Of a stretch of 64,000 bases of DNA, positions 14,915-61,354 are shown piece by piece. The position numbers were made by a program, and so were the translations under genes. The notes beneath the pieces were generated by a model that made no database searches, had not been told where the DNA came from, and saw nothing but the letters and a program-made list of their open reading frames with translations. Positions within the stretch are counted from its first letter, which is position 1, and each line of letters opens with the position of its first letter. The stretch is from a virus (taxonomy: Duplodnaviria > Caudoviricetes): positions 16,810-80,809 of IMG/VR virus record IMGVR_UViG_2872728642_000001. The stretch is one strand, 5' to 3'.

Positions 14915-14923
14915 GTGACCCTC

Positions 14924-16409: not shown

Positions 16410-16460
16410 GAGAGCACCTTTCACGAGGGATGTGGATCACTCGTGACGGTACCACGCAGA

Positions 16461-16488: not shown

Positions 16489-16624
16489 TCTCAGCGATCT
16501 TGGCCGCACCGTCAGACCGTAATGCGATCTCACCGAAGCCGGGACCCGTCCCGCCAGGAGCCACGAAGATAGGCGCATGGTCTTTTGGTTTGGGCATACC
16601 CGGAGTTGGCGTGGCGCTGCAGGA

Positions 16625-16999: not shown

Positions 17000-17027
17000 G
17001 GGCGGCCGACTGCCCCGATTAGCTAGA

Positions 17028-17249
17028 TCACTCGCTGACCGCCGCAAGCGCGCGGGCCAGCCTCTGCTTACCGCCCCGCGGCCGCAGCGGCGCCCCCGCC
17101 TCCTCCAGCAGCCGGTGAACGAACCCGTACGAGCGGCCCGTCGAGAGCGACAGCCCCCGGATCGACTCCCCGTCCAGGTACCGGCGCTTCAGCTCCGCCT
17201 TCAGCGTCTCGCGCTCGGCACCGGACACCCGCTGATACTTCCGAACCAT
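17028..17249 (-). CDS. Small HTH DNA-binding protein (actinobacterial HTH_58-type)
   Basis: 'LKAELKRRYLDGESIRGLSLSTGRSYGFVHRLLEEAGAPLRPRGG' signature. Confidence 0.85.
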   Translation of the reverse strand: MVRKYQRVSGAERETLKAELKRRYLDGESIRGLSLSTGRSYGFVHRLLEEAGAPLRPRGGKQRLARALAAVSE

Positions 17250-17274
17250 CACAGCCACCCCTGTCTGATTGCTC

Positions 17275-17544
17275 TCACGCAGCCGCCGCCAGCCGAACCC
17301 GCAACGCATCCCGGCCCTCCGGCGTCTCGGGCACTTCGTCGCCCCGCCAGATGCAGCCCTCGATCGTCGCCAAGTCGGCGAAGTCGTACACGACCTCGCG
17401 GCCAACCCGGCCCAGCACCCGGACGCCATACCTGCGCGCCCACTGCCGGATCGTCACCGCCTCCCGGCCCAGCCGGACAGCAGCGGTCTTCGCCGTCGCA
17501 GGGGACACCAACACCCCCCGAACAGCGGAAAGCCCCCGAACCAT
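17275..17544 (-). CDS. MerR-like HTH protein
   Basis: 'TAAVRLGREAVTIRQWARRY...VVYD'. Confidence 0.65.
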   Translation of the reverse strand: MVRGLSAVRGVLVSPATAKTAAVRLGREAVTIRQWARRYGVRVLGRVGREVVYDFADLATIEGCIWRGDEVPETPEGRDALRVRLAAAA

Positions 17545-17611
17545 GATCGGTCCGAGGGCACAAGTCTCTCCGTCGCTTGGAAGTGTTACACAGCCGCATC
17601 ACCAGGCGCAA

Positions 17612-17632
17612 GCCGACAGCGGAACCGCAATC
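17612..17632 (+). promoter_or_regulatory. 21-bp operator-like motif copy (inverted orientation)
   Basis: GCCGACAGCGGAACCGCAATC. Confidence 0.65.
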
Positions 17633-17721
17633 AGCGAGGATTGCGAGGGCCCCCCGCTGCAACAGGGAGCCCTCTTCCAACCTGGTCCTCAAAGGACATG
17701 GACAACACTAGCCCCCGAGGT

Positions 17722-18501
17722 TCAGCGCGCACCGCCAACACGCACACTCCCGCTACCTGCCTCCTCCTCAACCCGCCCCGACACCTCCCGCTCCGAAACG
17801 TGCGTCCCACACGACGCGCACACGTAGAAGCCTGCCTTCACGTCCCAGCGGAACGACCGCTCGCCACACCGGCACCGCGCCGGCGTCCACGCAGGCGGCT
17901 CATCCCCCACCATCCGTTCGAGCACCAGCCGCCACGACAAGACGAAGTCCACCAGGCCCACCAGGTCCTCACGAACGAGGACGCTCTCCAGCCGACCCGA
18001 CTCCGACAGCCAACCCACCGCCCGCGACCGAGCAACCGCCGACCGGACCCCGCTCGGACGCGGCCCCGCCCGCAGCCACACCCGCGCCCGATCCTCGAAG
18101 TCGAGCAGCCCGCCCGTCAGCTTCTCCAGCAGTTCCCCCACCGGCGACACCGCAGGCTTCGGCCTCGACCCCGACACCCTCGACCACTTCGACGGCGGCC
18201 GGAACCCATCCGCCTCCCGAGCGAGCTGCGCAGCGAACCCATCCACCTCCAACAGCGCTGCCCGAACCGACGCCGTACACCGACCGCACACCAGCGGAGC
18301 CCCCGGCCGCCAACGCAACTCCGGAACCTCCGGCTCGGCAGGCGGCTCACCGGCCTCGCCCTTCCTCACCCACTCGTCCACCAGGTCCGCATGCTCATCG
18401 CGCGCCCGCTCGAAAGCAGCCCACGCCCGACGCTGACGCCCATTACACGGGCCCATACACGCGCCCCGAACCATCGACACCCCAGAAGCAAGACCAGACA
18501 C
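17722..18501 (-). CDS. Zn-finger phage protein (possible late-gene regulator)
   Basis: CxxC pairs (CGRC; CRCG...CASC); position just upstream of the late region. Confidence 0.55.
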   Translation of the reverse strand: MSGLASGVSMVRGACMGPCNGRQRRAWAAFERARDEHADLVDEWVRKGEAGEPPAEPEVPELRWRPGAPLVCGRCTASVRAALLEVDGFAAQLAREADGFRPPSKWSRVSGSRPKPAVSPVGELLEKLTGGLLDFEDRARVWLRAGPRPSGVRSAVARSRAVGWLSESGRLESVLVREDLVGLVDFVLSWRLVLERMVGDEPPAWTPARCRCGERSFRWDVKAGFYVCASCGTHVSEREVSGRVEEEAGSGSVRVGGAR

Positions 18502-45473: not shown

Positions 45474-45749
45474 TTAATGAGCCCATATGTGGCCGTCGAT
45501 GAGCGCGCGGGCCTGCTCGTACGCTTCGTCCACGGTGATGCTGTAGTTCTGGGCGACGATGAGGTCCACCAAGTCGTTGACCGCGCGGGCGGCGTCCCAC
45601 GCGGACACAGTCTGCACGGCCTGGTCGTCGGATTCGGCGGCGAGCGCGGCGAAGCCGATCTCCTTGACCGCCTTGTCGGTAGCGTCCTGCAGCAGGGCGC
45701 GCCTGCACTGGTCGAGCGGTTCACGGCAGTGGAAGCACATAACGGACAT
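45474..45749 (-). CDS. Hypothetical protein (91 aa, CxxC-x5-C)
   Basis: ORF after the TGT-like gene. Confidence 0.55.
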   Translation of the reverse strand: MSVMCFHCREPLDQCRRALLQDATDKAVKEIGFAALAAESDDQAVQTVSAWDAARAVNDLVDLIVAQNYSITVDEAYEQARALIDGHIWAH

Positions 45750-45762: not shown

Positions 45763-46521
45763 TCAGATCAGGGTGAGTTGTACGGGTTCGGGCGCGTGGG
45801 CGGGGGTGCGCGGTGGAGCCGTGACCGGGCGTGTGGAGGCGAGGTCGTAGCGGCCGTCGTACGGGTCGTGGACCAGCTCGCACGCGTCGATCAGCGACGG
45901 CGCTTTCTCAAGCAGCAGTTGCCACGTCCAGCGCAGAACGGACGGCAGGTGCTTGTCTGGGCCGTTGGCGAGGAGTGTCCCGTCAGCGGAGTCGGCGTCC
46001 ATCGCCGCCGCGGCGTACCGCATCCGCTTGAACGAGTTGACCCGCCCGACGTGGACCCACAGCCCGGCAGCGCACGCGGCGCGCGCGAGCACGGCGGCTG
46101 CGGGGCTGAGCTTCCAGGACGTTGATCCGCCGATGAACAGGCAGTCGAAGTCCTCCCAGGCCCACCAGTCGCAGAATTCGAGGTAGTCCTGGGCGACCAT
46201 CGCGACCGGGTATCCCATTCGCCGGATGCGGTCGAGGTACGGGTATGAGCGGTTCACGGTGGCGAACGCGTTGAAGGGGAGGTCGGGCGCGGTCGCGAAC
46301 AAGCACCGGTCGGCGAACGGCGCGCGTTCCTCCAGCCACTCCATGTACGCCTCGTCGCCGACGTACGTGCTGCCGAAGATGCCAGAGTCGGCGGCCCACC
46401 AGCCCTCCTCGGGGACGCGGTTGCCCGAGGAGGGGGTGAGGATGGCGCCGAGCCGGCGCGCGTGGACGTGCTCCCGGATCCGCGCGGTGGACGGCGGCGC
46501 CAGATACAGCGGCGCGTACAT
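45763..46521 (-). CDS. TGT/DpdA-like TIM-barrel base-exchange transglycosylase
   Basis: 'WAADSGIF' (DSG motif), 'APD', 'AQD', 'LFIGG', 'VHVGRVNS', 'DSADGT'; ATG overlaps the PP-loop gene stop (TGATG). Confidence 0.65.
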   Translation of the reverse strand: MYAPLYLAPPSTARIREHVHARRLGAILTPSSGNRVPEEGWWAADSGIFGSTYVGDEAYMEWLEERAPFADRCLFATAPDLPFNAFATVNRSYPYLDRIRRMGYPVAMVAQDYLEFCDWWAWEDFDCLFIGGSTSWKLSPAAAVLARAACAAGLWVHVGRVNSFKRMRYAAAAMDADSADGTLLANGPDKHLPSVLRWTWQLLLEKAPSLIDACELVHDPYDGRYDLASTRPVTAPPRTPAHAPEPVQLTLI

Positions 46522-47309
46522 CAGTAGCAAGCCGCCGCGGTGTCGAACAGACTCGGCTGCCGGACCTTCTTGCGACGACGGACCAGCCCGGCCTCATACC
46601 GGCGGCGCAGCTCCGCGAGCGTCAGCGGGTATTTGACCCCGGCGACAGTCTCGGTGAGGATCGCCACGTCCTTGTCGTGCGTGACGCGGAACTTCTCCTC
46701 CAGTTCCTCGGCGTAGGCGTACCGCTCCGGGAACTTCTCCAGCGTGAGCAGCCATTGCTCGCGCCCGGCTCGGACGCACAGGCCGCCGCAGTTGTTGTGT
46801 TCGTAGCCCAGCTCGTACAGACGAGGCACCGCGATGCCGAGCGCCCTGCACTCGTCGAGCATGCGGTCCTTGCCCCAGTGCGGCTCGTCGCACATGGGGA
46901 ACTCGACTTGCCACGGCGACCAGCCGGCCACGGTGCCCGGCAGGCGTCGAGTCTCTGCGTGGTCGAATCCGACGTAGGCGATGGTGTGGTCGGGGTCGCA
47001 GTGCTCGGTCATCCATTTCCGGCACGGCACCTGCTTGAGGTGCTTGCTGCAGGGCGCGAGCCGCGAGTTGCCGAGCCACTTGACGTCGAAAAACACCTCG
47101 AACGGCGTTCTGCCGTCCGCGACGATGGTCGGTGCGACGCCCAGGTGGGCGCTGGCGTCGTCCATGAACCGGTAGAGGTCTTCGTCCTCGGTGAGGGTGT
47201 CGGCGAACAGCAGCACGAGGTTGTCCGTGCCGTACCGGGCCTTGACTCGCCGGGCGGCGTGAAACGAGCCGATGCCGCCGCTCATCTGCACGACATGGCG
47301 GGTGGCCAT
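46521..47309 (-). CDS. PP-loop ATPase (PAPS-reductase-like, adenine-nucleotide alpha-hydrolase fold)
   Basis: N-terminal 'VQMSGGIGS', 'FADTLTEDEDLYRF', 'PCSKHLK', 'HNNCGGLCVRAG'. Confidence 0.8.
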   Translation of the reverse strand: MATRHVVQMSGGIGSFHAARRVKARYGTDNLVLLFADTLTEDEDLYRFMDDASAHLGVAPTIVADGRTPFEVFFDVKWLGNSRLAPCSKHLKQVPCRKWMTEHCDPDHTIAYVGFDHAETRRLPGTVAGWSPWQVEFPMCDEPHWGKDRMLDECRALGIAVPRLYELGYEHNNCGGLCVRAGREQWLLTLEKFPERYAYAEELEEKFRVTHDKDVAILTETVAGVKYPLTLAELRRRYEAGLVRRRKKVRQPSLFDTAAACY

Positions 47310-47354
47310 GACGATCTCCTTCGCTGAAGAGAAGGGCCCCGCCGTACGGGCGGG

Positions 47355-47375
47355 GCCGGAAGCGGGACCGCAATC
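47355..47375 (+). promoter_or_regulatory. 21-bp operator-like motif copy (inverted orientation)
   Basis: GCCGGAAGCGGGACCGCAATC. Confidence 0.6.
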
Positions 47376-47381
47376 AGCGGC

Positions 47382-49301
47382 TCAAGCTGCGTTGTCGTAC
47401 TCGAAACGAGACAGCTCGATCCCCAGGAACGCCTCGATCAGGGCGCAGGTCAGAATCTCGGCCATGGGCGGCGGGACCGCGTTGCCGATGAGCTTCACCT
47501 TGTCTCGGGCACTGTCGGCGACGAACACGTAGCGGTCCGGGAACGACTGGGCCCGCTGGAGCTCCGGGATCCGGAGCATCCGGAACAGGATGGACGACAC
47601 GTCGATCTGGCCGTCCGGGGTGAGCAGCGCCCACCGGTCCCGGGTTGGGATCGTCCCCAGGGGCTCGTCCACGCTCTGCGTGCGCCCGTTGCCGTAGTAC
47701 GCCATGAGCAGCGTCTCCGGCAGGGGCAGGCCAGGCGGCGCGGTGACGAGCGACTGGTGCCCGGTCGTGGTGACCGTCCGCATGTGCTCGCTCGTCGGGG
47801 TGACGTGCTCGCGCCCGTCGCCCCGGCTGCCGTTGTTGCGCATGAGCAGCGCTGGCGGCGGCTGCCAGCCGGGAGGGACGCCGAGCCCGTGGTGGAAGCC
47901 GCCGGCCGTGACCGCGTGCGCGGGGTCCTCGAACGCGGGCCGGGATTTGAACTCGTCGCCACCGCCCCGGAACGGGAACATCAGCGGCAACATGCCGTCC
48001 TTGAAGGCTGGGTCAGTAGCCAGCCCGTGGTTGGAGCCGTCCGAGACGAGGGTGGCCAGCGGGTCCGTGGTCGGGTCTGTGTTGCGCGGTCGGCCCGAGC
48101 GCATGAGCGACAGGAACGAGGGGAACACGCCTGGCTGCGCGTCCGGGGGGAAGGCGATGCCATCCTCGTTCCGGGTGGTGCTGGTCCGCTTCGGCATGCT
48201 GACCGGCCGTGCCACCTTCCCGTCGCGGCCTTCGCACGGCACGACGAGCGCGTTCGCCTCCCGCGTAGTGAGCGCGGGGATCGGCTCGTCCACTCCCCTG
48301 GGCCCGTCGTTCCAGGTGCCGCCCGCGGGCGTGATGAACGGTTTGATCCAGTGTTCCTCGACCCCGGCGCGGATGCGGGCGATCGTCTTGGGCGCCAGGC
48401 CCTCGGGCTTCTTCTTCGTCTTCTTCCTGGAGCCGATCGGGGTGCCGAGGTCGGTCCAGTCGATCGTGTACGCAGCCGGGAGACGGGGCGGTTCGATGAG
48501 CTGGCCTTGGCACGCGGCCTCGGGGCACACCCACACGTATTGGCCGTTCTTGATGCCGTAGACACCCACGTCCACGCCGCGCTTCTTCCACGCGCGGACG
48601 GCCTGCACCCATCCGCCGTGGCGGGGGCAGAAGGCGTACGGGTCGAACCACTTGCGGTAGTTCGGCGTGCGCCCGACGCTCTCGTGGATGCCGGAAATAA
48701 GCATCCGGTCGCGGGACTGCGGGGTCGGCAGCGTGGTGCGTCCCTGCACGTGCGCGGCGTTTACGGCGTGGATCTGGATGATGTAGCCGAGCTTCCGCAG
48801 TTCCCGGATCCACCGGTCCCAGTGCGCCCACAACCTCGCCTGGACCACGTTCTCGACGCCGAACCCGAGCACCGGCTTGCCGTGTTTCTCCTGGCAGTGG
48901 CGCAGGTAAGTGACGACCTCCTCCATCAGAGCCCTCGACCGGATGCGGGTCTTCTGGTGCTCGGTCAGGTTGTCCAGGTCGTCGGCCCAGAGGGCCATCT
49001 GGTTTTCCTTGTCGAAGTACCGCGTCTCGCCCGAGGCCGTGGAGAACGCTGGACAGGCCGGCGAGGCCCAGAAAAAGCTGGCGTACGGAAACTTCTCGAT
49101 GGCATCGGCCTGCTGGACGTCGCCGAGCCAGAAGTTCACGTCGGGGTGGTTCTCGACGTACGTCCACTTCGCGGGCTTGGCGTGATTGGCAGCGAACCTA
49201 ATCTTGGTGCCAGGGACGGCGGCGATCCCGGTTCCAGAGCCGCCGCCGCCCGCGAACATCTCGACAACGTCGATGTCGTCGGGGAAAAGCCGGTTCAGCA
49301 C
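47382..49301 (-). CDS. C5-cytosine DNA methyltransferase
   Basis: Motif I 'MFAGGGG', IV 'SPAC', VI 'ENV', VIII 'PQSRDR', X 'IGNAVPP'. Confidence 0.92.
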   Translation of the reverse strand: MLNRLFPDDIDVVEMFAGGGGSGTGIAAVPGTKIRFAANHAKPAKWTYVENHPDVNFWLGDVQQADAIEKFPYASFFWASPACPAFSTASGETRYFDKENQMALWADDLDNLTEHQKTRIRSRALMEEVVTYLRHCQEKHGKPVLGFGVENVVQARLWAHWDRWIRELRKLGYIIQIHAVNAAHVQGRTTLPTPQSRDRMLISGIHESVGRTPNYRKWFDPYAFCPRHGGWVQAVRAWKKRGVDVGVYGIKNGQYVWVCPEAACQGQLIEPPRLPAAYTIDWTDLGTPIGSRKKTKKKPEGLAPKTIARIRAGVEEHWIKPFITPAGGTWNDGPRGVDEPIPALTTREANALVVPCEGRDGKVARPVSMPKRTSTTRNEDGIAFPPDAQPGVFPSFLSLMRSGRPRNTDPTTDPLATLVSDGSNHGLATDPAFKDGMLPLMFPFRGGGDEFKSRPAFEDPAHAVTAGGFHHGLGVPPGWQPPPALLMRNNGSRGDGREHVTPTSEHMRTVTTTGHQSLVTAPPGLPLPETLLMAYYGNGRTQSVDEPLGTIPTRDRWALLTPDGQIDVSSILFRMLRIPELQRAQSFPDRYVFVADSARDKVKLIGNAVPPPMAEILTCALIEAFLGIELSRFEYDNAA

Positions 49302-49570
49302 CCGGACTCCCTGCGGGACGACTCCTCGGCGGCGGACCGCGCGGCGCGGGTCTGCGCGACGGCCTTCGCCAGCTCGCCCTCCGTGGGGAACGGGACGCGG
49401 ATCATCTCCGGGAGCTGGCGGTAGATGATGCGGCCGGTGGCCGTGACGACCGCCTCGTAGCGGCCAGGGAATGACCAGAACACGGACACGGCCCGCAAGG
49501 CTCGGCTCGCCTTGACAAGCGCCATCGCGGAGTGATTTTGGGCAGGGGGTACTGCGGAGTGGCGGTTCAT
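49295..49570 (-). CDS. Hypothetical protein (91 aa)
   Basis: ORF between the MTase and the second PP-loop gene. Confidence 0.45.
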   Translation of the reverse strand: MNRHSAVPPAQNHSAMALVKASRALRAVSVFWSFPGRYEAVVTATGRIIYRQLPEMIRVPFPTEGELAKAVAQTRAARSAAEESSRRESGC

Positions 49571-49602
49571 CTGTGGTGTTGCCTTTCGCGAATAGCGAGG
49601 GG

Positions 49603-50775
49603 TTAGAACGAGAGCGAGAGCTGGGCGGGCCCGTTGAGCCCGGCCAGCCATGCCGTCTCGAAGGAGCGATAGGTCTTGTCGTTCGCCAGCGCGGGCGCGG
49701 CGGTCAGGATGTGCTCGACGCACGGGTAGTAGAGGTTCCGGGTGCGCAGCCACACCCGGTGGTGGCGGCCGTCCGTCTCGACCTCGCGGCCGAGCAGGTA
49801 CGCGGCCCGGTCGAGGTGGGCGAGCATGTCGGCGCGGGTGCCCTCGACGAGGAGTTCCAGCGACCGGTGGGTCTGGCCGCGGGCCATCGCGTCGCCGGGC
49901 TTGGCCGCCATGGCGCGGCGCACGTCGTAGATCGCCCACGGCATCCGGTCAAGGTGCCGCTCGAACAGGTCCAGGAGCGGCCCGCTGTCGGGGTTCGAGG
50001 CGATCAGGTCGTACAACTGCTGGCCGGCGAGGAGCCCTTGGCGCGGGTTCACCGCGACGGCCAGGTGCTCCATCGTGAGGCCGAGCAGCGCTTCATAGGG
50101 GTTGGCCAGGTAGCGCGGGATGGTCCGGTCCCGGCCTTCTGCCAGGGAAAATGCGTAAGGGCACTGGACGCACGCTGACTTCGGCCATCGCACGCCGAGC
50201 CGGTCGAGGACGTACTGCTCGCAGTCGTCGCGGTACCAGCCCCACTCGATCAGCGGGTAGGACGGGATCCGCGTGCCGGGGCCGAGCGGCATGTCACGCA
50301 TCATCCGCTTGGCTTCGCCCGCCTCGAAGCCGATGACGTGGACGAACTCCTCGTTGCCGACGATCTGGGCGATGATCTGGTCAAGGACCCAGCCCTTGAA
50401 CTTCAGGCTGCACTTCCTGATGCCGCCGGACTGAGGCACGGTCGCTACCGACAGCAGTTCCTCGCTGAGCCGGTAGGCGCCTGGCGCTGACGTCAGGCAC
50501 AGGATCGGGTGGGTGGTGTCGTCGAGGATCACGATGCCGTCCGCCTGGCGGCGGCCAGCTCGGGCGACCTGGATGGTGCGGACGCCGTGGCGGGCGAGCA
50601 GCGGGTAGATGTGCTGTTCGACGAGGTAGGCGGTTTCCACCCATTCGTCTCCGGTCTGCGCCGTCACGATCACGAGGTCTCGCAGGTCGAACCAGCGCGA
50701 CGCTGGCTCGGTGAGCCAACGCAGCAGGATCGCCGTCGAGTCCAGGCCGAGCCCGTATGAGAAGATGATCTTCAC
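49603..50775 (-). CDS. Second PP-loop (PAPS-reductase-like) ATPase
   Basis: 'FSYGLGLDST', 'RKCSLKFK', 'YPLIEWGWYRDDC', 'PKSACVQCPY'. Confidence 0.8.
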   Translation of the reverse strand: MKIIFSYGLGLDSTAILLRWLTEPASRWFDLRDLVIVTAQTGDEWVETAYLVEQHIYPLLARHGVRTIQVARAGRRQADGIVILDDTTHPILCLTSAPGAYRLSEELLSVATVPQSGGIRKCSLKFKGWVLDQIIAQIVGNEEFVHVIGFEAGEAKRMMRDMPLGPGTRIPSYPLIEWGWYRDDCEQYVLDRLGVRWPKSACVQCPYAFSLAEGRDRTIPRYLANPYEALLGLTMEHLAVAVNPRQGLLAGQQLYDLIASNPDSGPLLDLFERHLDRMPWAIYDVRRAMAAKPGDAMARGQTHRSLELLVEGTRADMLAHLDRAAYLLGREVETDGRHHRVWLRTRNLYYPCVEHILTAAPALANDKTYRSFETAWLAGLNGPAQLSLSF

Positions 50776-50833: not shown

Positions 50834-52450
50834 CTACTGCTCGGCGGGGATGACCACGACGACCGTGTTGATGGCCGTGGCCGGAGCGAACGACTCGGGA
50901 GGCAGAGGCTCGAACTCGCCGTCGCGCTCCTCAACTAGGGCGCGGAACTTCTCAGCCGCCTTGAACTGCTGGAAGATCACCCCGGCGGCCATGACAGCGA
51001 CGAGCCTGCCTCCGGGCTTGAGGAAGCGGAGGGCGTGGGTGACGTGCGCGATGTCCTTGCCGCCGGAGAACGGCGGGTTCATCACCACGCGGTCAAACAG
51101 CTCCTCGCCCGGCTCCATGTCGAAGAAGTCCCGGATGTGGATGCTGTTCGCGCCGGGGACACGCTCGGAGAGAACGCGACCGAGGCCCTGGTCAAGCTCG
51201 ATGCAGGACACGACGGCACCCAGTTCGACGACCGCCGCCGCGATGTTGCCGGTGCCCGCTGAGGGTTCGAGCACCATCATGCCGGGCTGGACGTCGGCCA
51301 GGTCCAGCAGCTTGGCGACTACGGCGGGTGGGGACACGAACGCCTCCCGGTCCCGGCCCACCGTCATGTTGTTGGCCATAGTCGCGGTCGCCCGAAGCTT
51401 CTCGGTGTCGAGCTTCGGCACATCGACCTTCGGCCTGCCCAGGGCCTTCTTCGCGGGCTGATTTGGCGCGAGGACGGCCGGACCGTCCTCGCCGTGCGGG
51501 CACTCGACTCGGCGGATGTCGGTGTACTTCACCTTGTCGGGCCAGGAGTAGCCAGACTCGACGGCGACCGTGACCTTGTTGACCTTCACCACGGTGCGTG
51601 CCCGGATCCCCCAGTAGTGCACGGTGTCGCCGATGTGCACGTTGTGCTTGCCCCACTCGATGTACTCGCCCGCTGAGACCGCCGCGGCGAGCTGCGCCCG
51701 GTCGTACTCAAGCTGGTTCTCGAGCTGGGCCTTGCGGGCGAGCAGCATCTCCCGGTGGTCGCCGGTGGCGGCCTCGTGAGGATCGATGTAGATCGGCTTC
51801 CCCTGGTGGTCGAGGTGCCTGCGGGTGTAGCCCTCCAACGACCGCTCGATCTTGCGCAGCTCGGCCTCAGTCGTCTTGATTCGGCGCGCGGTCACGGTCG
51901 GAGTCGCGGAGCGCCGCATCTGGTTGCCGACCGCGTTGGCGCGCTCAGCGGCGCTCTGCGCCTGGTTGTCCTTGTCGATGCTCTTACGCATCGCCTGGTC
52001 CATCCGCTTCCGGTCGCGCCGGGCACCCCGCTCGGAGTGGTGACCGACCAGGATGGGCTGACCCGCGGCGAACCGCTCACTGATCTGGTGCGCCCGCTCG
52101 TGCGCGGCGGCCGCCGCGCCAGCGTGCCGCCCGGCCTTCGCCTCCAGCGCGTCGCGGCGGTCTTCGAGCCGTTCGGCCTTGTCCTCCAGAACCTGGGCGT
52201 GGTCGCGGTGCTCGTCGTCGATCTCGACGGTGACCTCGAACCCCGCTTCGCGCAAGGCCTTCGCCGCGGCGTTGATCGCCCAACGGTCGGCGACCCGGTC
52301 ACGCGAGTTCCGCAGCCCGATCATGCGGAGGGAGGGGAAGAACCTGAAGTTGCCGTTCTCCCACTTGCGGATGATGTCGAACACGCCGTCGCCCTTGCGG
52401 GTGCCATAGACGAGGGTGCCGTCTTCGTGGTTGTGCTTGATCGTGATCAA
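50834..52450 (-). CDS. DUF3560 domain fused to an amino (N6A/N4C-type) SAM methyltransferase
   Basis: 'GQPILVGHHSER' (DUF3560); 'LEPSAGTG' and 'VMNPPF' MTase motifs. Confidence 0.85.
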   Translation of the reverse strand: MITIKHNHEDGTLVYGTRKGDGVFDIIRKWENGNFRFFPSLRMIGLRNSRDRVADRWAINAAAKALREAGFEVTVEIDDEHRDHAQVLEDKAERLEDRRDALEAKAGRHAGAAAAAHERAHQISERFAAGQPILVGHHSERGARRDRKRMDQAMRKSIDKDNQAQSAAERANAVGNQMRRSATPTVTARRIKTTEAELRKIERSLEGYTRRHLDHQGKPIYIDPHEAATGDHREMLLARKAQLENQLEYDRAQLAAAVSAGEYIEWGKHNVHIGDTVHYWGIRARTVVKVNKVTVAVESGYSWPDKVKYTDIRRVECPHGEDGPAVLAPNQPAKKALGRPKVDVPKLDTEKLRATATMANNMTVGRDREAFVSPPAVVAKLLDLADVQPGMMVLEPSAGTGNIAAAVVELGAVVSCIELDQGLGRVLSERVPGANSIHIRDFFDMEPGEELFDRVVMNPPFSGGKDIAHVTHALRFLKPGGRLVAVMAAGVIFQQFKAAEKFRALVEERDGEFEPLPPESFAPATAINTVVVVIPAEQ

Positions 52451-52509: not shown

Positions 52510-52749
52510 TTACTGCTGGGGGCCGTGCTCGCAGTCGTGGAGCAGGTGGTCGTCCATCGCGCCGTCGAGCAGCGCGATTCGGGTCTTGTCGCTCTCCCAC
52601 GCGGCACTGACCCGCTCGCGACACAGCAGGCAGACGACTTGGTAGTGCCGCCCCTGGCCCGGGCTGGCCGGGATGTCGTAGTAGCCGTAGCCGCGGGCGT
52701 TGCGGGCGAGTTGGCGGCGGCCACCCTTCGTCGCCGGGTCGAGGTTCAC
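52510..52749 (-). CDS. Small Zn-finger-like protein (79 aa)
   Basis: CxxC...H..H.C; GTG overlaps the upstream stop. Confidence 0.55.
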   Translation of the reverse strand: MNLDPATKGGRRQLARNARGYGYYDIPASPGQGRHYQVVCLLCRERVSAAWESDKTRIALLDGAMDDHLLHDCEHGPQQ

Positions 52750-53387
52750 TCCTCGCCGTCCTCGTCCGACTCCAGGAGCTGGGCCTGCATGAGCTCGACG
52801 ACGATCACGCGGGGAGGCTTGGAGCCGGCCCGGGGCGCGAACACGGCGCAGTCCGGCGGGCACTGCGTGGTGCGGTCGTCCTCGCCGGCCGGGGCGGTGC
52901 CGCAGTACGGGCACCGGGCGCGCGGCACGGTCTGGGCGACGTCGAACGTGCCCTTCTTCACGTAGTAGCGCGGCCCGCGCTTGGAGGACTGCCAGCCGTC
53001 CTCGGCCTGCTCCTTCTCCTTGGCCTTCTCCTCGTCGGTCTTCTTCCGGCCGACGTGGCGCCACGTGCCGAGCGACTTCTCTCCTTCGGCCACGGCGCGG
53101 CCCTGGCTGAGCCAGTAGTCGAAGCCGCCGCAGTGGGTGAGGGGGCGGCGCTGCGCCGCGAGGAGCAACGCGTTCTGCAGCGAGTAGCCGGGCTCGTCGC
53201 TGGCGGGGTCGAGCTTCCAGCCGATGCTCGCCGCGATGTCGCGGAAGTGCTCCAGCTCGGCTGGGTTGGTCAGGCACAGCACGGCGTAGGCGTGCAGCGC
53301 CTCGCGTGCTCCGGTGCGGCTGGCGGCGCTGCGGTCCTTCTGCGCCTGGGTGACTGGGCGGCGCTTGCGCTTCTTGGCGGTCACCAT
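52746..53387 (-). CDS. ArdC-like ssDNA-binding (anti-restriction) N-domain protein
   Basis: 'YSLQNALLLAAQ', 'GGFDYWLSQGRAVAEGEK', 'GTFDVAQT'; lacks the MPTase HExxH domain. Confidence 0.75.
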   Translation of the reverse strand: MVTAKKRKRRPVTQAQKDRSAASRTGAREALHAYAVLCLTNPAELEHFRDIAASIGWKLDPASDEPGYSLQNALLLAAQRRPLTHCGGFDYWLSQGRAVAEGEKSLGTWRHVGRKKTDEEKAKEKEQAEDGWQSSKRGPRYYVKKGTFDVAQTVPRARCPYCGTAPAGEDDRTTQCPPDCAVFAPRAGSKPPRVIVVELMQAQLLESDEDGEE

Positions 53388-54137: not shown

Positions 54138-54538
54138 CGGGTGCCTCTCAGTGCGGACACGACGCGTGCCGTGTCGTAGACAGGGTTGGGGAGGTCCGCG
54201 GGGGCGCCGCACTGGCACAGGCCGGTGATGATGACGCCGCCGCGTATGTCGAGCCACCACCGGTTGGCGGCGGGCGGGAAGTAGTGGCTGAGCAGCACTG
54301 CAGCGAGCTCGTTGCGTGGCCGGTCGCCGGGGTGCGACAGCCGGCCGACGATCAGGCGGGCGGCGGGGTACTCCTCGACCTCGGAGATCTCGGTGTCGTT
54401 GTCGCCGTCGCCGAGGGTCAGCGCGGCCGTCAGGTGCCGCGGGTCGAAGCGGTCGCCTTCGTCGGCCGTCCGGAGTTGCACGCGCGTGATCCAGGCCGGG
54501 CTCGCGGCGAGCAGCAGCCCGATCAGAGTGCTCGTCAC
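54134..54538 (-). CDS. Hypothetical protein (134 aa)
   Basis: GTG overlaps the phosphatase stop. Confidence 0.55.
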   Translation of the reverse strand: MTSTLIGLLLAASPAWITRVQLRTADEGDRFDPRHLTAALTLGDGDNDTEISEVEEYPAARLIVGRLSHPGDRPRNELAAVLLSHYFPPAANRWWLDIRGGVIITGLCQCGAPADLPNPVYDTARVVSALRGTR

Positions 54539-55263
54539 TCGGGCTCTCCCTCGCGCGGGATGAGGTCGATGACGGCGACTGTCGTGTTGTCGCGGCCACG
54601 GCCCTGCCTGGCCATGTCGAGCAGCGACGCCGCGACGTACTCGCCGGACAGGTCCGGCGCGGCCATGCGCGCCAGGTCGTCGAGCATCGCGTTCATGTGG
54701 TCGGCCCGCCCAGCGAGCGGCAGGTGCGCGGTCAGACCGTCCGAGGCGAGGATGATGCGGGCGTAGTCGTCGGTGTAGATGAGCAGCCGGTGCGGCCAGG
54801 TGCCTTCGCCCTCGTGCTTCTCCTCGACGTTGCACGGAGTCCCGCACGGGTGGCAGGAGGGCACGGTCAGCGGGATGACCTTGCCGTCCTGGAGCACGGC
54901 CCAGGCGGGTGAGTCGCCGGCCCAGGCCATGTCGAGCAGCCCTGGGGTGATCGCGGCGACGACCGCCGTGGTGATGCCTTCCTGACCGGGAGGGGCGTCC
55001 TCGTTGCGCTGCTGCAGGTAGGTGCGGGCCGCGTGCAGGCCCTGGACACCGCTGTTGGTGGAGCCGGTGACCGCCGCGGCGATCTGCGCGCTGATCTGGG
55101 CGGCGTCGGCCGCGTCGGAGTCGTCGCCCGCGCCGTCACACACCGCGACGGCCAGCGCCCAGGAGCCGTCGAGGACGGCCACGTAGTCGGCCTGGGTGTG
55201 GCGGCTGTTCTGGATGCTGTCGTAGAAGACGCGGGCGACGCCCGGCACGTACAGGAGGGGCAT
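54535..55263 (-). CDS. PP2C/PPM-family Ser/Thr protein phosphatase
   Basis: 'QAD', 'AVCDGAG', 'TTAV', 'WAGDS', 'LASDGL', 'DNTTVAVI'. Confidence 0.88.
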   Translation of the reverse strand: MPLLYVPGVARVFYDSIQNSRHTQADYVAVLDGSWALAVAVCDGAGDDSDAADAAQISAQIAAAVTGSTNSGVQGLHAARTYLQQRNEDAPPGQEGITTAVVAAITPGLLDMAWAGDSPAWAVLQDGKVIPLTVPSCHPCGTPCNVEEKHEGEGTWPHRLLIYTDDYARIILASDGLTAHLPLAGRADHMNAMLDDLARMAAPDLSGEYVAASLLDMARQGRGRDNTTVAVIDLIPREGEPE

Positions 55264-59790: not shown

Positions 59791-60079
59791 CGTTCTCTGG
59801 CCTGGGGCGGCTCCTGAGGGGTGGCGACCTGGAGGGCTCTCGCCGTGTTCCGGCGGTCTCGTGTGATACAAATAATACAACTCGACGCGTCTGACGTGTC
59901 AGACACACCATAGCGCGCTCTCTGCGTCTATACGAGACGTGCGCGCAGAGATCACCAAGCGCGACGGGACGACCCCGCTGATGACGGGTTCACGCGGCCT
60001 CAGGCCCGCGACCAGGCGAAACCGTCAGACCGGAGCAGCCTCGCCGCGCGCCGACCCCCACCCCTCAAGGAGAAGCACG

Positions 60080-61354
60080 ATGGCCCGCGTCAAGGACCTG
60101 TGGTTCAAGACCGTGACGGACCCGAACGGCGCACAGAAGCGCGAACAGACCGCCCGGCACGGGAAAGGAAAGCGCTGGTTAGCGATCTGGACGAACCTCG
60201 AAGGCCGCGAGCAGACGAAGGCGTTCATCAAGAAGACGGAGGCCGAGAAGCACGGCTCGATGATGGAGGCCGACAAGATGCGGGGGAACTACATCGACCC
60301 GAACGGCGGCAAGACGCGCCTGGCTGCCCTCGTCGAGGGCGAGGAGGGCTGGCTGGCGTCCCTCACTGCCGACCCGTCCACCCGGCAGATCTACGAGATC
60401 TACTGGCGGGTGCACATCAAGCCGAAGTTCGGGCAGCGGGAGATCGGCTCACTCCGGCCGAGTGAGATCCGTGCTTGGGTCAAGCAGCTCGAGAAGCGGC
60501 TGGCGAAGAGCACGGCCAACCGCGTGCTGGCCTTTCTCGATCAGCTCCTGCAGAGCGCCGTGGATGATGACCTGATCGCCAAGAATCCGTGCGCGTCGAA
60601 GGTCGTCAAGAAGCCCAAGGCCGAGGCACGGAAGGTAGTGCCGTGGTCGATGCAGCGTCTGCAGGCGGTGACCGAGGCGCTTGCAGAGCGGTACCGGATC
60701 CTCGCGACCTTGGGCGCGGGTCTCGGGCTTCGCCAGGGCGAGATCTTCGGTCTGGCCGTGGACGACGTGGACTTTGACAAGGGCATCGTCCACATCCGGC
60801 AGCAACTGAAGATGCTCGACTCCAAGCTGCTGTTCGGGCTGCCGAAGCATGATCGCGAGCGGACGATTCCTCTGCCCGAGTCGGTTGCCCAGGTCCTACG
60901 GGAGTACCTGGGGCGGTTTCCGGCCCGGGAGGTCGCTCTGCCCTGGGAGGAACTGGACGGGGAGTTGATCACCTTGCGGCTGATCATCACCAGCCGGGAG
61001 TCCAAGGCGTTGAACCGCAACTACATCAACACCTACGTCTGGAAGCCCGCTCTTGTGCGGGCAGGCGTGGTCACTCAGGCGGATCTCGACGCGCGGGTGC
61101 CAGGGCGTCGGAACCAGAGGAACCGCAAGCACGGCATGCACGCCCTGCGGCACATGTACGCCAGCTTGCTGCTCGACGCCGGCGTGTCCGTCAAGGCCTT
61201 GGCCGAGTACCTGGGGCACATGGACCCTGGGTACACGCTCCGGGTGTACACGCACCTGATCGCTGGCACCGAAGGCCGGGCGGCGAACGTCATCGACACG
61301 GCGTTCCGCCATGAAGTCCCGGAGACCGGAACAGAGCCGGAACAGCACCCTTAA
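60080..61354 (+). CDS. int: Tyrosine integrase
   Basis: RBS AAGGAG; R (GLRQGE), K (PKH), HxxR (HALRH), LGH, Y (YTH); arm-binding and SAM-like N-domains. Confidence 0.95.
   Translation: MARVKDLWFKTVTDPNGAQKREQTARHGKGKRWLAIWTNLEGREQTKAFIKKTEAEKHGSMMEADKMRGNYIDPNGGKTRLAALVEGEEGWLASLTADPSTRQIYEIYWRVHIKPKFGQREIGSLRPSEIRAWVKQLEKRLAKSTANRVLAFLDQLLQSAVDDDLIAKNPCASKVVKKPKAEARKVVPWSMQRLQAVTEALAERYRILATLGAGLGLRQGEIFGLAVDDVDFDKGIVHIRQQLKMLDSKLLFGLPKHDRERTIPLPESVAQVLREYLGRFPAREVALPWEELDGELITLRLIITSRESKALNRNYINTYVWKPALVRAGVVTQADLDARVPGRRNQRNRKHGMHALRHMYASLLLDAGVSVKALAEYLGHMDPGYTLRVYTHLIAGTEGRAANVIDTAFRHEVPETGTEPEQHP

What the first reader, a model, noticed from the sequence alone, without database searches (positions are those of the whole stretch)
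45763..50775. Candidate new DNA base-hypermodification system: TGT/DpdA-like transglycosylase coupled to a PP-loop ATPase, beside a C5 MTase and a second PP-loop enzyme, with no Que genes
Seen: four adjacent co-oriented genes. PP-loop #2 (49603-50775; SYGLGLDST, KSACVQCP), C5 MTase (47382-49301), PP-loop #1 (46521-47309; SGGIGS, HNNCGGLC) and a 252-aa protein with DSG, LFIGG, HVGRVNS and DSADG motifs whose ATG overlaps the PP-loop #1 stop (TGATG coupling). Known: TGT/DpdA enzymes swap guanine for 7-deazaguanine bases using DSG-type aspartates; QueC, which tailors those bases, is a PP-loop ATPase; phage deazaguanine marks block restriction. Inference: neither PP-loop protein looks like canonical QueC, and folE/queD/queE are absent from the window. 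The pair may therefore insert a scavenged host base and then adenylate/amidate or thiolate it, or work together with 5mC, giving an uncharacterised modification.
Basis: partly seen in the sequence, partly recalled or inferred. Interest (0 to 1): 0.85.

Follow-up and report, generated by a model that had tools for sequence, protein, structure and literature searches.

The report
Importer-less clamp-tailed DpdA among modification genes
An integrated phage-like element of a Nonomuraea-type actinomycete carries a row of separately shuffled DNA-marking genes, one of which belongs to a large unnamed branch of the DpdA enzymes that swap guanine in DNA for a 7-deazaguanine base; the proposed two-enzyme "new hypermodification pathway" is not supported, but where this branch gets its base in this host is unexplained.

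Summary
All four genes are real, intact and co-oriented, and the TGATG stop/start overlap is there.

**The 252-aa protein.** It is a TGT/DpdA-superfamily TIM barrel. It belongs to a large family with no Pfam model (3,379 clusters at 50% identity). SEA-PHAGES annotators already call its phage members "DpdA-like".

**Partner genes.** The family's usual partner is not a PP-loop gene. It is a YhhQ/Vut_1 importer gene immediately upstream, in about 42 of 80 genome loci and 61 of 80 viral loci. QueF-like or QueC/QueD genes sometimes accompany it. The family is therefore a salvage-type DpdA.

**PP-loop #1.** It adjoins the DpdA-like gene only in the window's closest relatives, and 77-78%-identical relatives lack it. 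By itself it belongs to a family of more than 2,000 stand-alone phage PptA/SspD-like proteins. PP-loop #2 is a second PAPS-reductase-fold family. The block reads best as a mosaic anti-restriction island, not one pathway.

**Two observations not in the finding.**
- The window's lineage has no importer gene. Six of six host genomes checked have no YhhQ and no QueC match.
- The DpdA-like protein and PP-loop #2 carry family-conserved C-terminal sliding-clamp-binding-type tails. PP-loop #1 has one only in its close relatives.

Earlier notes of this scan reached similar "unlinked neighbours" verdicts on other DNA.

The parts
45763..46521 (-). DpdA-like TIM-barrel transglycosylase (252 aa). Catalytic core is about residues 1-205; residues 223-252 are a low-confidence linker ending in QLTLI, a sliding-clamp-binding-type tail.
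   Evidence: AlphaFold model: pLDDT 85.7, eight beta-alpha units. VIA-align top hits: ArcTGT Z 14.0, Cap10 13.9, TGT 13.3, DpdA 7ui4 12.1. Matches to viral structures are dominated by phage DpdA. hhalign against six canonical phage DpdA: probability 78.6%, E 1.7e-5. phrog_15826 at 1.5e-60. Phage homologs are annotated 'DpdA-like tRNA-guanine transglycosylase'. Tail conservation.
46521..47309 (-). PP-loop #1: PptA/SspD-like PAPS-reductase-family enzyme (262 aa). Motifs SGGIGS, APCSKHLK and NNCGGLC. Ends ...QPSLFDTAAACY.
   Evidence: phrog_424 at 2e-43. PADLOC SspD model at 9.6e-16 over its full length. PDB 21fy_C 'PptA' at 7.1e-12. Pfam PAPS_reduct scores only 16.9 bits, below the 22.5 cut-off. 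48% identical to mycobacteriophage 'PAPS reductase-like' proteins.
47382..49301 (-). C5 cytosine DNA methyltransferase (639 aa). Residues of about 215-560, between the N- and C-terminal motif blocks, match no methylase model.
   Evidence: PF00145 at 1.6e-21, two stretches. TIGR00675 at 2.2e-14. PADLOC type II MTase models. Catalytic motifs are visible in the translation.
49603..50775 (-). PP-loop #2: 390-aa two-domain protein. The N-terminal domain (1-217) has a PAPS-reductase fold with SYGLGxDST, a conserved Cys122 and KSAC202xxC205P. The C-terminal domain (218-390) has no structural match. Ends ...PAQLSLSF, a clamp-binding-type tail.
   Evidence: Model pLDDT 92.2. VIA-align: PAPS reductase 7rge Z 12.4, CysH 10.8, APS reductases about 10. 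phrog_424 at 7.6e-8. No Pfam, NCBIfam or PDB sequence hit. Family alignment and tails.
50834..52450 (-). Upstream neighbour in the same gene array: DUF3560 domain fused to an amino (N6-type) DNA methyltransferase.
   Evidence: PF12083 at 3.6e-19 plus methyltransferase models. PHROG DNA methyltransferase families. Co-occurs with the DpdA-like gene in 11 of 80 genome loci.
52746..53387 (-). ArdC N-terminal-domain (anti-restriction type) protein, same array.
   Evidence: PF08401 at 5.1e-5.
45474..45749 (-). 91-aa ORF 13 bp downstream of the DpdA-like gene. Conserved in the closest relatives. Not a transporter.
   Evidence: tblastn 71-87% identity in L004, L005, L006 and L008, and 38% in L007. No family hit. 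The translation shows no hydrophobic segments.
59939..61354 (+). Tyrosine integrase near one end of the integrated phage-like element that carries the array.
   Evidence: phrog_1 integrase at 1.9e-55. A close relative of the region (L091, 85% identical DpdA-like gene) lies on a 79-kb IMG/VR viral contig.

Best explanation
The block is a stack of independently mobile DNA-modification (anti-restriction) genes in the early or accessory arm of an integrated phage-like element. It is not one biosynthetic pathway.

**(1) The 252-aa protein.**
- It is a member of a large subfamily of the DpdA/TGT base-exchange enzymes that has no Pfam model.
- Across that subfamily the gene is normally fused into a two-gene cassette with a YhhQ/Vut_1 7-deazaguanine-precursor importer, sometimes with QueF or QueC/QueD.
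- Its most likely activity is therefore post-replicative exchange of guanine in the element's DNA for a salvaged 7-deazaguanine base.
- In the window's lineage (a 27-member clade) the importer gene is absent. The enzyme carries a disordered linker ending in a sliding-clamp-binding-type motif (QLTLI). This should dock it on the host DnaN clamp so that it works on replicating DNA.
- The source and identity of the base in this host are unresolved.

**(2) The two PP-loop proteins.**
- They are two different PAPS-reductase-fold, cysteine-cluster enzymes of the phage PptA / SspD / DndC kind.
- Most likely they are ATP-dependent sulfur transferases that draw on host cysteine-desulfurase sulfur and mark DNA independently of the DpdA-like enzyme.
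- PP-loop #2, and in this lineage PP-loop #1, also end in clamp-binding-type tails.

**(3) The methyltransferases.** The C5 methyltransferase and the upstream DUF3560-amino-methyltransferase add ordinary methyl marks.

**Shown:** folds, homologies, gene-neighbourhood statistics, tail conservation, absence of Que and importer genes.
**Inferred:** base exchange on DNA, sulfur transfer, clamp binding, anti-restriction role.
For: **DpdA identity**
- Eight-stranded TIM barrel. The TGT-family structures ArcTGT, Cap10, TGT, DpdA and QTRT2 are at or near the top of an exhaustive structure scan. Phage DpdA dominates the viral structure hits.
- hhalign against 9g-type DpdA gives probability 78.6% and E 1.7e-5. 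It aligns D45 to the invariant DSGA Asp, D80 to the invariant LD..G Asp, and G131/G132 to the invariant GG.
- Five colinear motifs are shared with Sonali DpdA.

**7-deazaguanine context of the family**
- A Vut_1/YhhQ gene (PF02592) lies immediately upstream in about 42 of 80 genome loci and 61 of 80 IMG/VR loci.
- A QueF-like gene is present in about 4 and 10 loci respectively. QueC is nearby in 5 viral loci and QueD in 5, both together in 4 (L112, L122, L132 and Sonali itself).
- Phages Aoka, Bhagsy and ReqiPine5 show the same cassette.

**Mosaic arrangement**
- PP-loop #1 is adjacent only in L004-L006 and L091. It is absent in L007, L008 and L018.
- The PP-loop #1 family has more than 2,216 members, mostly stand-alone, in 89 phage records. 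None of those listed is among the records that carry the DpdA-like gene.
- Neighbours across the loci are mostly methylases and integrases.

**Clamp-binding-type tails**
- Only 4 of 71 window ORFs have such a tail, and 3 of them are these enzymes.
- Tails occur in 56 of 121 DpdA-like and 39 of 120 PP-loop #2 homologs, against about 1% of internal 16-residue control windows.
- The tail follows a low-confidence linker in the model.
- The canonical dpdA of phages 9g, Seurat and RHph_X3_2 lies within two genes of a phage sliding-clamp gene (directly beside it in 9g).

**PP-loop proteins**
- PptA PDB hit, SspD model, PAPS-reductase fold and conserved Cys triads.
- Role of SspD/DndC/BrxP as sulfur acceptors and donors for DNA phosphorothioation: PMC12839542.
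Against: - No biochemical data exist for any of the three enzyme families.
- TGT-family Z-scores (12-14) barely exceed those of generic TIM barrels (11-13). The profile alignment covers only the first three motifs.
- The host has no QueC, TGT, YhhQ, QueF or QueT match. Five other hosts of the same clade lack YhhQ, QueC and a QueE-like gene. A 7-deazaguanine substrate therefore has no identified source in this lineage.
- A 'DpdA-only' mycobacteriophage (Orion, a different DpdA group) had no detectable deazaguanine (PMC6884629).
- PAPS-reductase-like genes of three different subfamilies lie within about 3 kb of the DpdA-like gene in roughly a dozen independent loci, including directly adjacent in ReqiPine5 and L027. 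This may be more than chance.
- The PP-loop #1 tail is conserved only in close relatives: 4 of 120 by the strict pattern.
- Clamp binding could not be modelled.
Confidence: 0.55

Rival explanations
1. The DpdA-like enzyme and PP-loop #1 (perhaps also #2) form one pathway. The PP-loop enzyme adenylates and then thiolates or amidates either the free base before insertion or the inserted base in DNA. The product would be an uncharacterised hypermodified guanine.
For: - The TGATG translational coupling is conserved in four relatives.
- PAPS-reductase-like genes of three subfamilies sit within about 3 kb of the DpdA-like gene in about 12 independent loci. They are directly adjacent in ReqiPine5 gp02/gp03 and in L027.
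- The lineage lacks the usual importer and host preQ0 genes, so something else must supply or complete the base.
- The host makes CDG through a FolE-QueD-QueE cluster.
- There is a precedent for a TGT-like plus PP-loop pair: CBASS Cap10/Cap9, both recovered as structural neighbours.
- The DpdA-like protein, PP-loop #2 and, in this lineage, PP-loop #1 carry clamp-binding-type tails.
Against: - Adjacency of PP-loop #1 is confined to one element lineage. L007, L008 and L018 lack it.
- About 90% of 160 family loci have no PAPS-reductase-like gene nearby.
- PP-loop #1 homologs are abundant in phages that lack the DpdA-like gene.
- Neither PP-loop protein matches QueC.
- The CDG cluster is absent from five other hosts of the clade.
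- Gene overlap is common in phage gene arrays and does not by itself show a functional link.
Confidence: 0.15
2. In this importer-less clade the enzyme no longer installs a 7-deazaguanine. Either it is effectively idle for want of substrate, or it has another role. Possible roles are exchange with a different base, or glycosylase-type action on DNA for anti-defence.
For: - Six of six hosts checked have no YhhQ and no QueC match.
- Only about 16 of 121 genomes of the host family have a full-length QueC.
- Mycobacteriophage Orion, a DpdA-only phage, had no deazaguanine in its DNA (PMC6884629).
Against: - All conserved pocket and catalytic positions are identical between the importer-linked and importer-less groups: D45, A78-P79-D80, Q111, G131-G132, K137, H157-G159-R160-N162, D180-G181. 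Only three conservative group-specific changes were found.
- The clade is diverse and intact across several actinomycete families, which argues for continued selection.
- Other uptake routes for soil-borne preQ0 or queuine cannot be excluded.
Confidence: 0.2
3. The enzyme acts on tRNA, as classical TGT does, and reprograms host translation rather than marking DNA.
For: The fold is TGT-like. The database name given to homologs is 'tRNA-guanine transglycosylase'.
Against: - There is no PF01702 match.
- P0001 shows no Cys/His zinc cluster and no domain beyond the barrel in its translation and model.
- The nearest sequence relatives with a known function are DNA-modifying phage DpdA.
- The C-terminal clamp-binding-type tail points to DNA.
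- The gene sits among DNA methylases.
Confidence: 0.05

Closest known systems
Phage DpdA of the 9g/CAjan type (DpdA1; Hutinet et al. 2019, PMC6884629; 2023, PMC10516641)
   Same: TIM-barrel TGT-superfamily fold. Colinear DSG, (A/L)xD-V-x-GD, IGG, H-x-G and DS motifs. Carried by phages or prophages among anti-restriction genes. The family context includes QueC, QueD, QueF and YhhQ genes. Canonical dpdA lies beside or within two genes of a sliding-clamp gene in 9g, Seurat and RHph_X3_2.
   Different: About 100 residues shorter (core of about 200 aa). No Pfam TGT or DUF6610 match. Sequence similarity is detectable only by profile-profile comparison (E 1.7e-5). Four pre-2019 phages that carry it (ReqiPine5, Majeke, Ksquared, Sonali) are not named in the 2019 catalogue's held supplementary files. 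The usual partner is an importer rather than a synthesis pathway. This clade adds a host-clamp-binding-type tail and has no importer.
SEA-PHAGES 'DpdA-like tRNA-guanine transglycosylase' genes (Arthrobacter phage Aoka gp40, Mycobacterium phage Bhagsy gp55, Rhodococcus phage ReqiPine5 gp03; phrog_15826)
   Same: Same protein family: 44-55% identity over the catalytic core, phrog_15826 at 1.5e-60.
   Different: Those phages have a Vut_1/YhhQ gene immediately upstream (Aoka also has a QueF-like gene). The window's lineage has neither, and carries a longer C-terminal linker and tail.
[quoted passage not shown]
   Same: A DpdA-type gene without preQ0 synthesis genes. The base source is uncertain. 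The host (Mycobacterium) lacks queuosine metabolism.
   Different: A different DpdA subgroup. Orion DNA was found unmodified. Nothing has been measured for the present family.
PptA of a Vibrio phage (PDB 21fy chain C) and SspD/DndC/BrxP PAPS-reductase-like sulfur-transfer enzymes of DNA phosphorothioation systems
   Same: PP-loop #1 aligns to PptA over about 210 residues (E 7e-12) and to the SspD model over its full length (1e-15). It shares the N-terminal PP-loop, a CS-K-K motif and a C-x-x(x)-C motif. PP-loop #2 shares the fold and an equivalent Cys triad.
   Different: No SspA/B/C or DndA/D/E partners were seen in the Pfam/PHROG scans of ten neighbouring genes. Both proteins are stand-alone phage versions. 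PP-loop #2 has an extra 170-residue C-terminal domain with no structural match. The function of PptA is not known to me. The note that entry 21fy also holds IscS comes from earlier AI notes and was not checked here.
CBASS type IV Cap10 (TGT-like) with Cap9 (QueC-like)
   Same: A TGT-fold protein together with a PP-loop ATPase. Both appear among the structural neighbours: Cap10 Z 13.9 for the 252-aa protein, Cap9 Z 8.7 for PP-loop #2.
   Different: By the titles of entries 9ntn/9nto, Cap9 and Cap10 are seen bound to the CdnD cyclase carrying an 'NDG' modification, i.e. a protein target rather than DNA. No CD-NTase is present here. The PP-loop proteins here are PAPS-reductase-like, not QueC-like. 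The pairing is not conserved.

Membership tests
TGT/DpdA superfamily | (beta/alpha)8 TIM-barrel core most similar to TGT-family structures | tested here: met
   Model pLDDT 85.7 with eight strands. ArcTGT 1iq8 Z 14.0 (rmsd 3.7, 221 aligned), Cap10 13.9, TGT 3unt 13.3, DpdA 7ui4 12.1 and QTRT2 12.1 are at or near the top of 48,161 chains. Generic TIM barrels reach 11-13, so the margin is small. Phage DpdA dominates the BFVD hits.
TGT/DpdA superfamily | First catalytic Asp in a DSG motif, and substrate-pocket Asp and GG motifs in colinear order | tested here: met
   D45, D80 and G131-G132 are invariant in 40 homologs. In hhalign (probability 78.6%, E 1.7e-5) they align to the invariant D72 (DSGA), D114 and G162 of 9g-type DpdA.
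TGT/DpdA superfamily | Second catalytic Asp (nucleophile) after the last barrel strand | tested here: inconclusive
   An invariant D180 in DSADG lies in the same order as the invariant DSS of canonical DpdA. The profile alignment did not extend that far.
Bacterial/archaeal tRNA TGT (Pfam PF01702) | Match to the family model | tested here: not met
   No PF01702 hit for P0001 or any of 40 homologs, even at E <= 10. The classical TGT zinc-binding and tRNA-binding subdomains were not tested separately; P0001's translation shows no Cys/His cluster, and four family members have a CxxC...CxxC insert instead.
DpdA4 / DUF6610 (PF20314) | Match to the family model | tested here: not met
   No hit in the Pfam scans or in a whole-genome scan at E <= 10. 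It is only the nearest named cluster in a language-model feature search (score 0.92).
Functional phage DpdA (7-deazaguanine DNA insertase) | Genomic association with 7-deazaguanine synthesis or salvage genes | tested here: met
   Met for the family: Vut_1/YhhQ adjacent in about 42 of 80 genome loci and 61 of 80 viral loci, with QueF-like and QueC/QueD in further loci. Not met for the window itself or its 27-member clade. The host has no match to QueC, YhhQ, QueF, QueT or TGT models.
Functional phage DpdA (7-deazaguanine DNA insertase) | Guanine/7-deazaguanine exchange activity on DNA | not testable with these tools
   Needs LC-MS/MS of DNA or an in-vitro exchange assay.
PAPS-reductase-like PP-loop enzymes (PptA / SspD / DndC kind): PP-loop #1 | Sequence match to family models and to a solved member | tested here: met
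   phrog_424 at 2e-43. PADLOC SspD at 9.6e-16, positions 1-250 of 277. PDB 21fy_C PptA at 7.1e-12. Pfam PF01507 is below its cut-off (16.9 against 22.5 bits).
PAPS-reductase-like PP-loop enzymes: PP-loop #2 | PAPS-reductase fold with an N-terminal PP-loop and conserved cysteines | tested here: met
   7rge Z 12.4 (rmsd 3.7, 162 aligned), CysH 10.8, APS reductases about 10. Invariant G8, G10, D12, S13, T14, C202, C205 and nearly invariant C122. Only a weak PHROG hit (7.6e-8) and no Pfam hit.
QueC (PF06508) | Match to the QueC model | tested here: not met
   No PF06508 hit for either PP-loop protein at E <= 1. B. subtilis QueC is only a distant structural neighbour (Z 7.8).
Ssp / Dnd phosphorothioation system | Presence of the partner proteins (cysteine desulfurase, DndD/SspC ATPase, DndE/SspB) | tested here: not met
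   Pfam and PHROG scans of ten neighbouring genes show methylases, ArdC-N, PP2C and a replication initiator, and no such partners. A host housekeeping desulfurase could substitute (PMC12839542). That was not tested.
C5 cytosine DNA methyltransferase | PF00145 match with catalytic motifs | tested here: met
   PF00145 at 1.6e-21. FAGGGG, PAC-PAFS, ENV, QSRDR and GNAVPPP are visible in the translation.
Sliding-clamp (DnaN) client proteins | C-terminal QL[SD]LF / QLxLxL-type motif after a flexible linker | tested here: met
   The tails are QLTLI, QPSLFD... and QLSLSF. They are enriched 30- to 45-fold over internal control windows in the DpdA-like and PP-loop #2 families. The linker has pLDDT below 50.

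The most novel reading that the evidence does not exclude
The importer-less, clamp-tailed DpdA clade is found in actinomycetes that can neither make preQ0 nor import it through YhhQ. It may install at the replication fork a guanine replacement that is not one of the known 7-deazaguanines. Alternatively, it may depend on the neighbouring PptA-like PP-loop enzymes to make or finish the base. Either way the result would be an undescribed DNA modification.
Probability: 0.15. Interest if true: 0.8.

Novelty: new variant of a known kind. Interest (0 to 1): 0.5.

Why it matters
DpdA enzymes are treated as the signature of 7-deazaguanine DNA modification in viruses.

- **An unnamed branch.** This protein belongs to a large branch (about 3,400 clusters at 50% identity) that has no Pfam model. 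Four phages that carry it are not named in the supplementary files held for the 2019 survey. The branch is almost always paired with a YhhQ importer, so salvage-based deazaguanine marking may be much commoner in soil phages than current catalogues suggest.
- **A puzzle.** The window's lineage carries the enzyme without the importer, in hosts that lack known deazaguanine sources.
- **A testable idea.** Phage DNA-modifying enzymes, here two or three different ones in one block, may be tethered to the host sliding clamp.

For the finding as written, the main message is a caution. Adjacency and a 1-nt gene overlap in a phage accessory island do not make a pathway.

Tried and rejected
- **Sequence searches on the 252-aa protein.** Pfam, NCBIfam, PADLOC and PDB sequence searches found nothing.
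- **Foldseek against the PDB.** It returned only generic TIM barrels, with TGT at rank 25. The exhaustive aligner was needed to bring TGT-family structures to the top.
- **DUF6610/DpdA4 membership.** Rejected: no HMM match.
- **Single-sequence hhalign to Sonali DpdA.** Weak: probability 16%. It improved to 78.6% with a six-sequence DpdA alignment.
- **ReqiPine5 PAPS reductase.** No BLAST similarity to either PP-loop protein.
- **PP-loop #1 against the PP-loop #2 profile.** Weak: probability 10.9%. They are treated as different subfamilies of one fold.
- **Host CDG cluster as the general base source.** Rejected, because five other hosts of the clade lack a QueE homolog with this query.
- **Changed substrate pocket in the importer-less clade.** No group-specific changes at conserved positions.
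- **Downstream ORFs as hidden transporters.** Rejected on inspection of the two translations.
- **Literature.** Searches for PptA found no paper on this protein. 'DpdA-like' occurs only in genome announcements and in papers on other DpdA types.
- **Canonical DpdA as a single query.** A viral-contig scan found only the query's own contig.
- **Plasmid search.** A large ORF of the element had no match in the plasmid collection.

Full report
**1. Observation**

The window is about 68% GC. A codon-position filter (GC3 of at least 0.8) picks out a long array of minus-strand genes from about 59.5 kb down to about 40 kb. The four ORFs of the finding are in it.

- 45763-46521: 252 aa.
- 46521-47309: 262 aa.
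- 47382-49301: 639 aa.
- 49603-50775: 390 aa. The 443-aa TTG ORF reaching 50934 begins with low-complexity sequence overlapping the end of the upstream gene. The GTG at 50775 puts the PP-loop at the N-terminus, as in homologs.

The stop of the 262-aa gene and the start of the 252-aa gene share one base, reading TGATG.

**2. Setting**

The upstream genes in the same array are as follows.
- A DUF3560 domain fused to an amino-methyltransferase.
- An ArdC N-terminal-domain protein.
- A PP2C phosphatase.
- A replication-initiator-like protein.

A tyrosine integrase lies at 59939-61354 and a second one at 14924-15892. Several proteins match phage families, including an exonuclease and a DNA polymerase exonuclease subunit. 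One protein resembles early proteins of Streptomyces phages mu1/6 and VWB. A close relative of the whole block, with an 85% identical DpdA-like gene, lies on a 79-kb IMG/VR viral contig. The best homologs come from Nonomuraea and other Streptosporangiaceae. I did not verify structural genes, so I call it an integrated phage-like element.

**3. The 252-aa protein is a DpdA/TGT-superfamily enzyme**

Pfam, NCBIfam, PADLOC and PDB sequence searches find nothing. It matches phrog_15826 ('unknown function') at 1.5e-60.

The fold evidence is as follows.
- An AlphaFold model built on 40 homologs has pLDDT 85.7 and is an eight-stranded beta/alpha barrel. Residues 223-252 are of low confidence.
- An exhaustive structural comparison against 48,161 chains puts archaeosine TGT (Z 14.0), Cap10 (13.9) and bacterial TGT (13.3) on top. 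DpdA (7ui4) and QTRT2 score 12.1. Unrelated TIM barrels reach 11-13, so fold alone is suggestive rather than decisive.
- Among predicted viral structures, the hits are dominated by phage 'queuine tRNA-ribosyltransferase' (DpdA) proteins.

The sequence evidence is as follows.
- A profile-profile comparison with six canonical phage DpdA proteins (9g, Seurat, a Rhizobium phage, Bipper, Megan, Sonali) gives probability 78.6% and E 1.7e-5.
- It aligns the invariant D45, D80 and G131/G132 with the invariant DSGA Asp, LD..G Asp and GG of DpdA.
- By inspection, all five conserved motifs are colinear: DSGIF with DSGAF, TAPDVVGD with AALDVIGD, IGG with IGG, VHVGR with LHGLG, and DSADG with DSSSW.

Phage homologs at 44-55% identity are already annotated 'DpdA-like tRNA-guanine transglycosylase' in 12 of the 23 matching phage records, all in SEA-PHAGES format.

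The protein is not a member of Pfam TGT or of DUF6610/DpdA4. The family is large: 3,379 clusters at 50% identity at E <= 1e-3, and 1,261 at E <= 1e-30. Four pre-2019 phages that carry it (ReqiPine5, Majeke, Ksquared, Sonali) are not named in the supplementary files held for the 2019 DpdA survey.

**4. What the family travels with**

This is the strongest functional evidence.

- In phages Aoka, Bhagsy and ReqiPine5, the gene immediately upstream encodes a Vut_1 (PF02592, YhhQ-type) membrane protein. YhhQ is named as the preQ0 transporter in PMC6884629.
- In Aoka, a QueF-like gene lies between the two.
- In 80 loci from species-representative genomes, a homolog of these importers ends right at the start of the DpdA-like gene in about 42.
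- In 80 IMG/VR loci this holds for 61. A QueF-like gene is present in 10. QueC is nearby in 5 and QueD in 5, both together in 4.
- Phage Sonali has the gene a few kb from a ParB-DpdA-QueC-QueD-QueE cluster.

The family is thus firmly tied to 7-deazaguanine metabolism, mostly through salvage. Other recurrent neighbours are DNA methylases and an integrase.

**5. The PP-loop coupling is not conserved**

- PP-loop #1 is adjacent in L004-L006 and L091, which are the same element lineage at 80-87% identity. It lies 1-2.7 kb away in L169 and L057.
- L007 and L018 (77-78% identical DpdA-like gene) and L008 (75%) have the C5 methylase next to the DpdA-like gene without PP-loop #1.
- PP-loop #1 belongs to a family of more than 2,216 proteins of about 240-260 aa.
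- That family occurs in 89 phage records, 60 of them mycobacteriophages. None of the listed ones is among the phages with the DpdA-like gene.
- The family matches phrog_424 (2e-43), the PADLOC SspD model (9.6e-16, full length) and the solved 'PptA' chain 21fy_C (7.1e-12).

PP-loop #2 is a separate family with no Pfam model (316 hits).
- Its model (pLDDT 92) has an N-terminal PAPS-reductase-fold domain: 7rge Z 12.4, CysH 10.8.
- Its 170-residue C-terminal domain has no structural match.
- It has an invariant SYGxGxDST loop and conserved Cys122, Cys202 and Cys205.
- Neither PP-loop protein matches QueC.

PAPS-reductase-like genes of three different subfamilies lie within about 3 kb of the DpdA-like gene in roughly a dozen independent loci. 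They are directly adjacent in ReqiPine5 and L027. This is about 8% of loci. I could not compute a proper background rate.

**6. Two observations not in the finding**

(a) The base has no identified source in this lineage.
- A maximum-likelihood tree places the window in a 27-row clade (support 94/99) in which no member has the importer. The clade is nested among importer-linked rows.
- The window's genome (13.8 Mb, four contigs, 100% complete by marker genes) has no match to QueC, TGT, Vut_1, QueF or QueT models.
- Five other hosts of the clade have no Vut_1 match and no QueC match at E <= 1e-10.
- Only about 16 of 121 genomes of the host family have a full-length QueC.
- The window's host does carry a FolE-QueD-QueE cluster on another contig. 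Its QueE-like gene is 47% identical to phage Sonali QueE.
- That cluster also holds a phosphoribosyltransferase, methyltransferase, radical-SAM, aminotransferase, HAD and SAICAR-synthetase-like genes. It looks like a deazapurine-nucleoside biosynthetic cluster.
- The five other hosts lack a QueE homolog with this query, so this cluster cannot be the general source.
- The conserved pocket residues do not differ between importer-linked and importer-less groups. That argues against a switch of substrate.

(b) The enzymes carry clamp-binding-type tails.
- The 252-aa protein ends in QLTLI, PP-loop #1 in QPSLFD-TAAACY, and PP-loop #2 in QLSLSF.
- Only 4 of 71 likely genes in the window have such a motif in their last 16 residues, and three of them are these enzymes.
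- In homologs the motif occurs at the C-terminus in 56 of 121 (DpdA-like) and 39 of 120 (PP-loop #2). About 1% of internal 16-residue windows have it.
- For PP-loop #1 it is confined to close relatives and scattered others.
- It follows a variable, low-confidence linker.
- It is anti-correlated with the importer. Among the 79 DpdA-like ORFs tallied (some loci contribute more than one), 21 have the tail only, 40 the importer only, 5 both and 13 neither. These ORFs are related to one another, so the counts are not independent.
- The pattern matches the known bacterial beta-clamp-binding consensus (QL[SD]LF / QLxLxL; my own knowledge).
- Canonical dpdA lies within two genes of a phage sliding-clamp gene in 9g, Seurat and RHph_X3_2, directly beside it in 9g.

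**7. Mechanism proposed**

The element stacks independent marks on its DNA.
- N6-type and C5 methylation.
- A DpdA-type guanine exchange, probably for a 7-deazaguanine.
- One or two PptA/SspD-like reactions, probably sulfur transfers.

SspD, DndC and BrxP accept sulfur from a cysteine desulfurase and pass it to the DNA backbone (PMC12839542). The non-methylase enzymes would be recruited to replicating DNA by the host clamp.

The folds, homologies, neighbourhood statistics and tail conservation are shown. The chemistry, the target and the clamp binding are inferred.

**8. Comparison with known systems and verdict**

The closest known systems are phage DpdA systems (PMC6884629, PMC10516641), including the unresolved 'DpdA-only' group. 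For the PP-loop genes, the closest are PptA and SspD/DndC.

This is a new variant of a known kind: an unnamed salvage-type DpdA subfamily, here in an importer-less, clamp-tailed form.

Earlier notes of this scan reached similar 'unlinked neighbours' or 'DpdA plus YhhQ' verdicts on other genomes. I used them only as leads.

Noticed in passing
L088 (G000 contig C1:356000-375900), about 9100-17900 of the locus: The host carries a cluster of QueD-like PTPS, QueE-like radical-SAM (47% identical to phage Sonali QueE), GTP cyclohydrolase I, phosphoribosyltransferase, methyltransferase, a second radical-SAM, DegT aminotransferase, a kinase-like gene, HAD phosphatase and a SAICAR-synthetase-like gene, flanked by transposases. 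It looks like a 7-deazapurine nucleoside antibiotic cluster, without a QueC. The host can therefore make CDG although it lacks preQ0 genes.
   Followed up: partly
L172 (phage 9g), L176 (phage Seurat), L174 (Rhizobium phage RHph_X3_2): The canonical dpdA gene lies next to, or one or two small genes from, a phage-encoded DNA polymerase sliding-clamp gene. This fits the idea that DpdA enzymes work with a clamp.
   Followed up: no
L025-L060 and L068, L073 (genome loci), about 1.2 kb downstream of the DpdA-like gene: In 15 loci the YhhQ + DpdA-like cassette sits next to a tyrosine integrase, at the edge of a prophage. That is a typical position for lysogeny-expressed cargo.
   Followed up: no
L039, L040, L041, L043: Identical YhhQ + DpdA-like loci on ~39-kb contigs are assigned to MAGs of different phyla (Dehalococcoidia, Gammaproteobacteria, Stappiaceae). 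This is probably one phage genome binned into unrelated MAGs.
   Followed up: no
Alignment A1, rows P0078, P0089, P0109, P0121: Some family members carry a CPxC...C-x-x-C zinc-ribbon-like insertion right after the GG motif. It is absent in the window's protein.
   Followed up: no
L003 (Arthrobacter phage Sonali): One phage carries both the DpdA-like gene (gp81) and a canonical ParB-DpdA-QueC-QueD-QueE cluster (gp86-90). The two transglycosylases are probably not redundant; they may differ in motif or base.
   Followed up: no
window 49603-50115 (C-terminal domain of PP-loop #2, residues 218-390): A well-predicted alpha+beta domain (pLDDT above 90) had no structural match in the full-length search. 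It was not folded and searched on its own.
   Followed up: no
window 54535-55263 and 52746-53387: A PP2C-type phosphatase and an ArdC N-terminal-domain protein lie in the same early array. The ArdC-N protein also ends in a weak QAQLL motif.
   Followed up: no
window 14924-15892 and 59939-61354: There are two tyrosine integrases about 44 kb apart. The element's boundaries and the presence of virion genes were not established. No tRNA gene is in the window.
   Followed up: partly
L010-L017, immediately upstream of the DpdA-like gene: In a sister group of the importer-less clade, the position of the importer is taken by a 156-aa protein with an RNA polymerase alpha-CTD-like domain (PF03118, 1.5e-6).
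   Followed up: no
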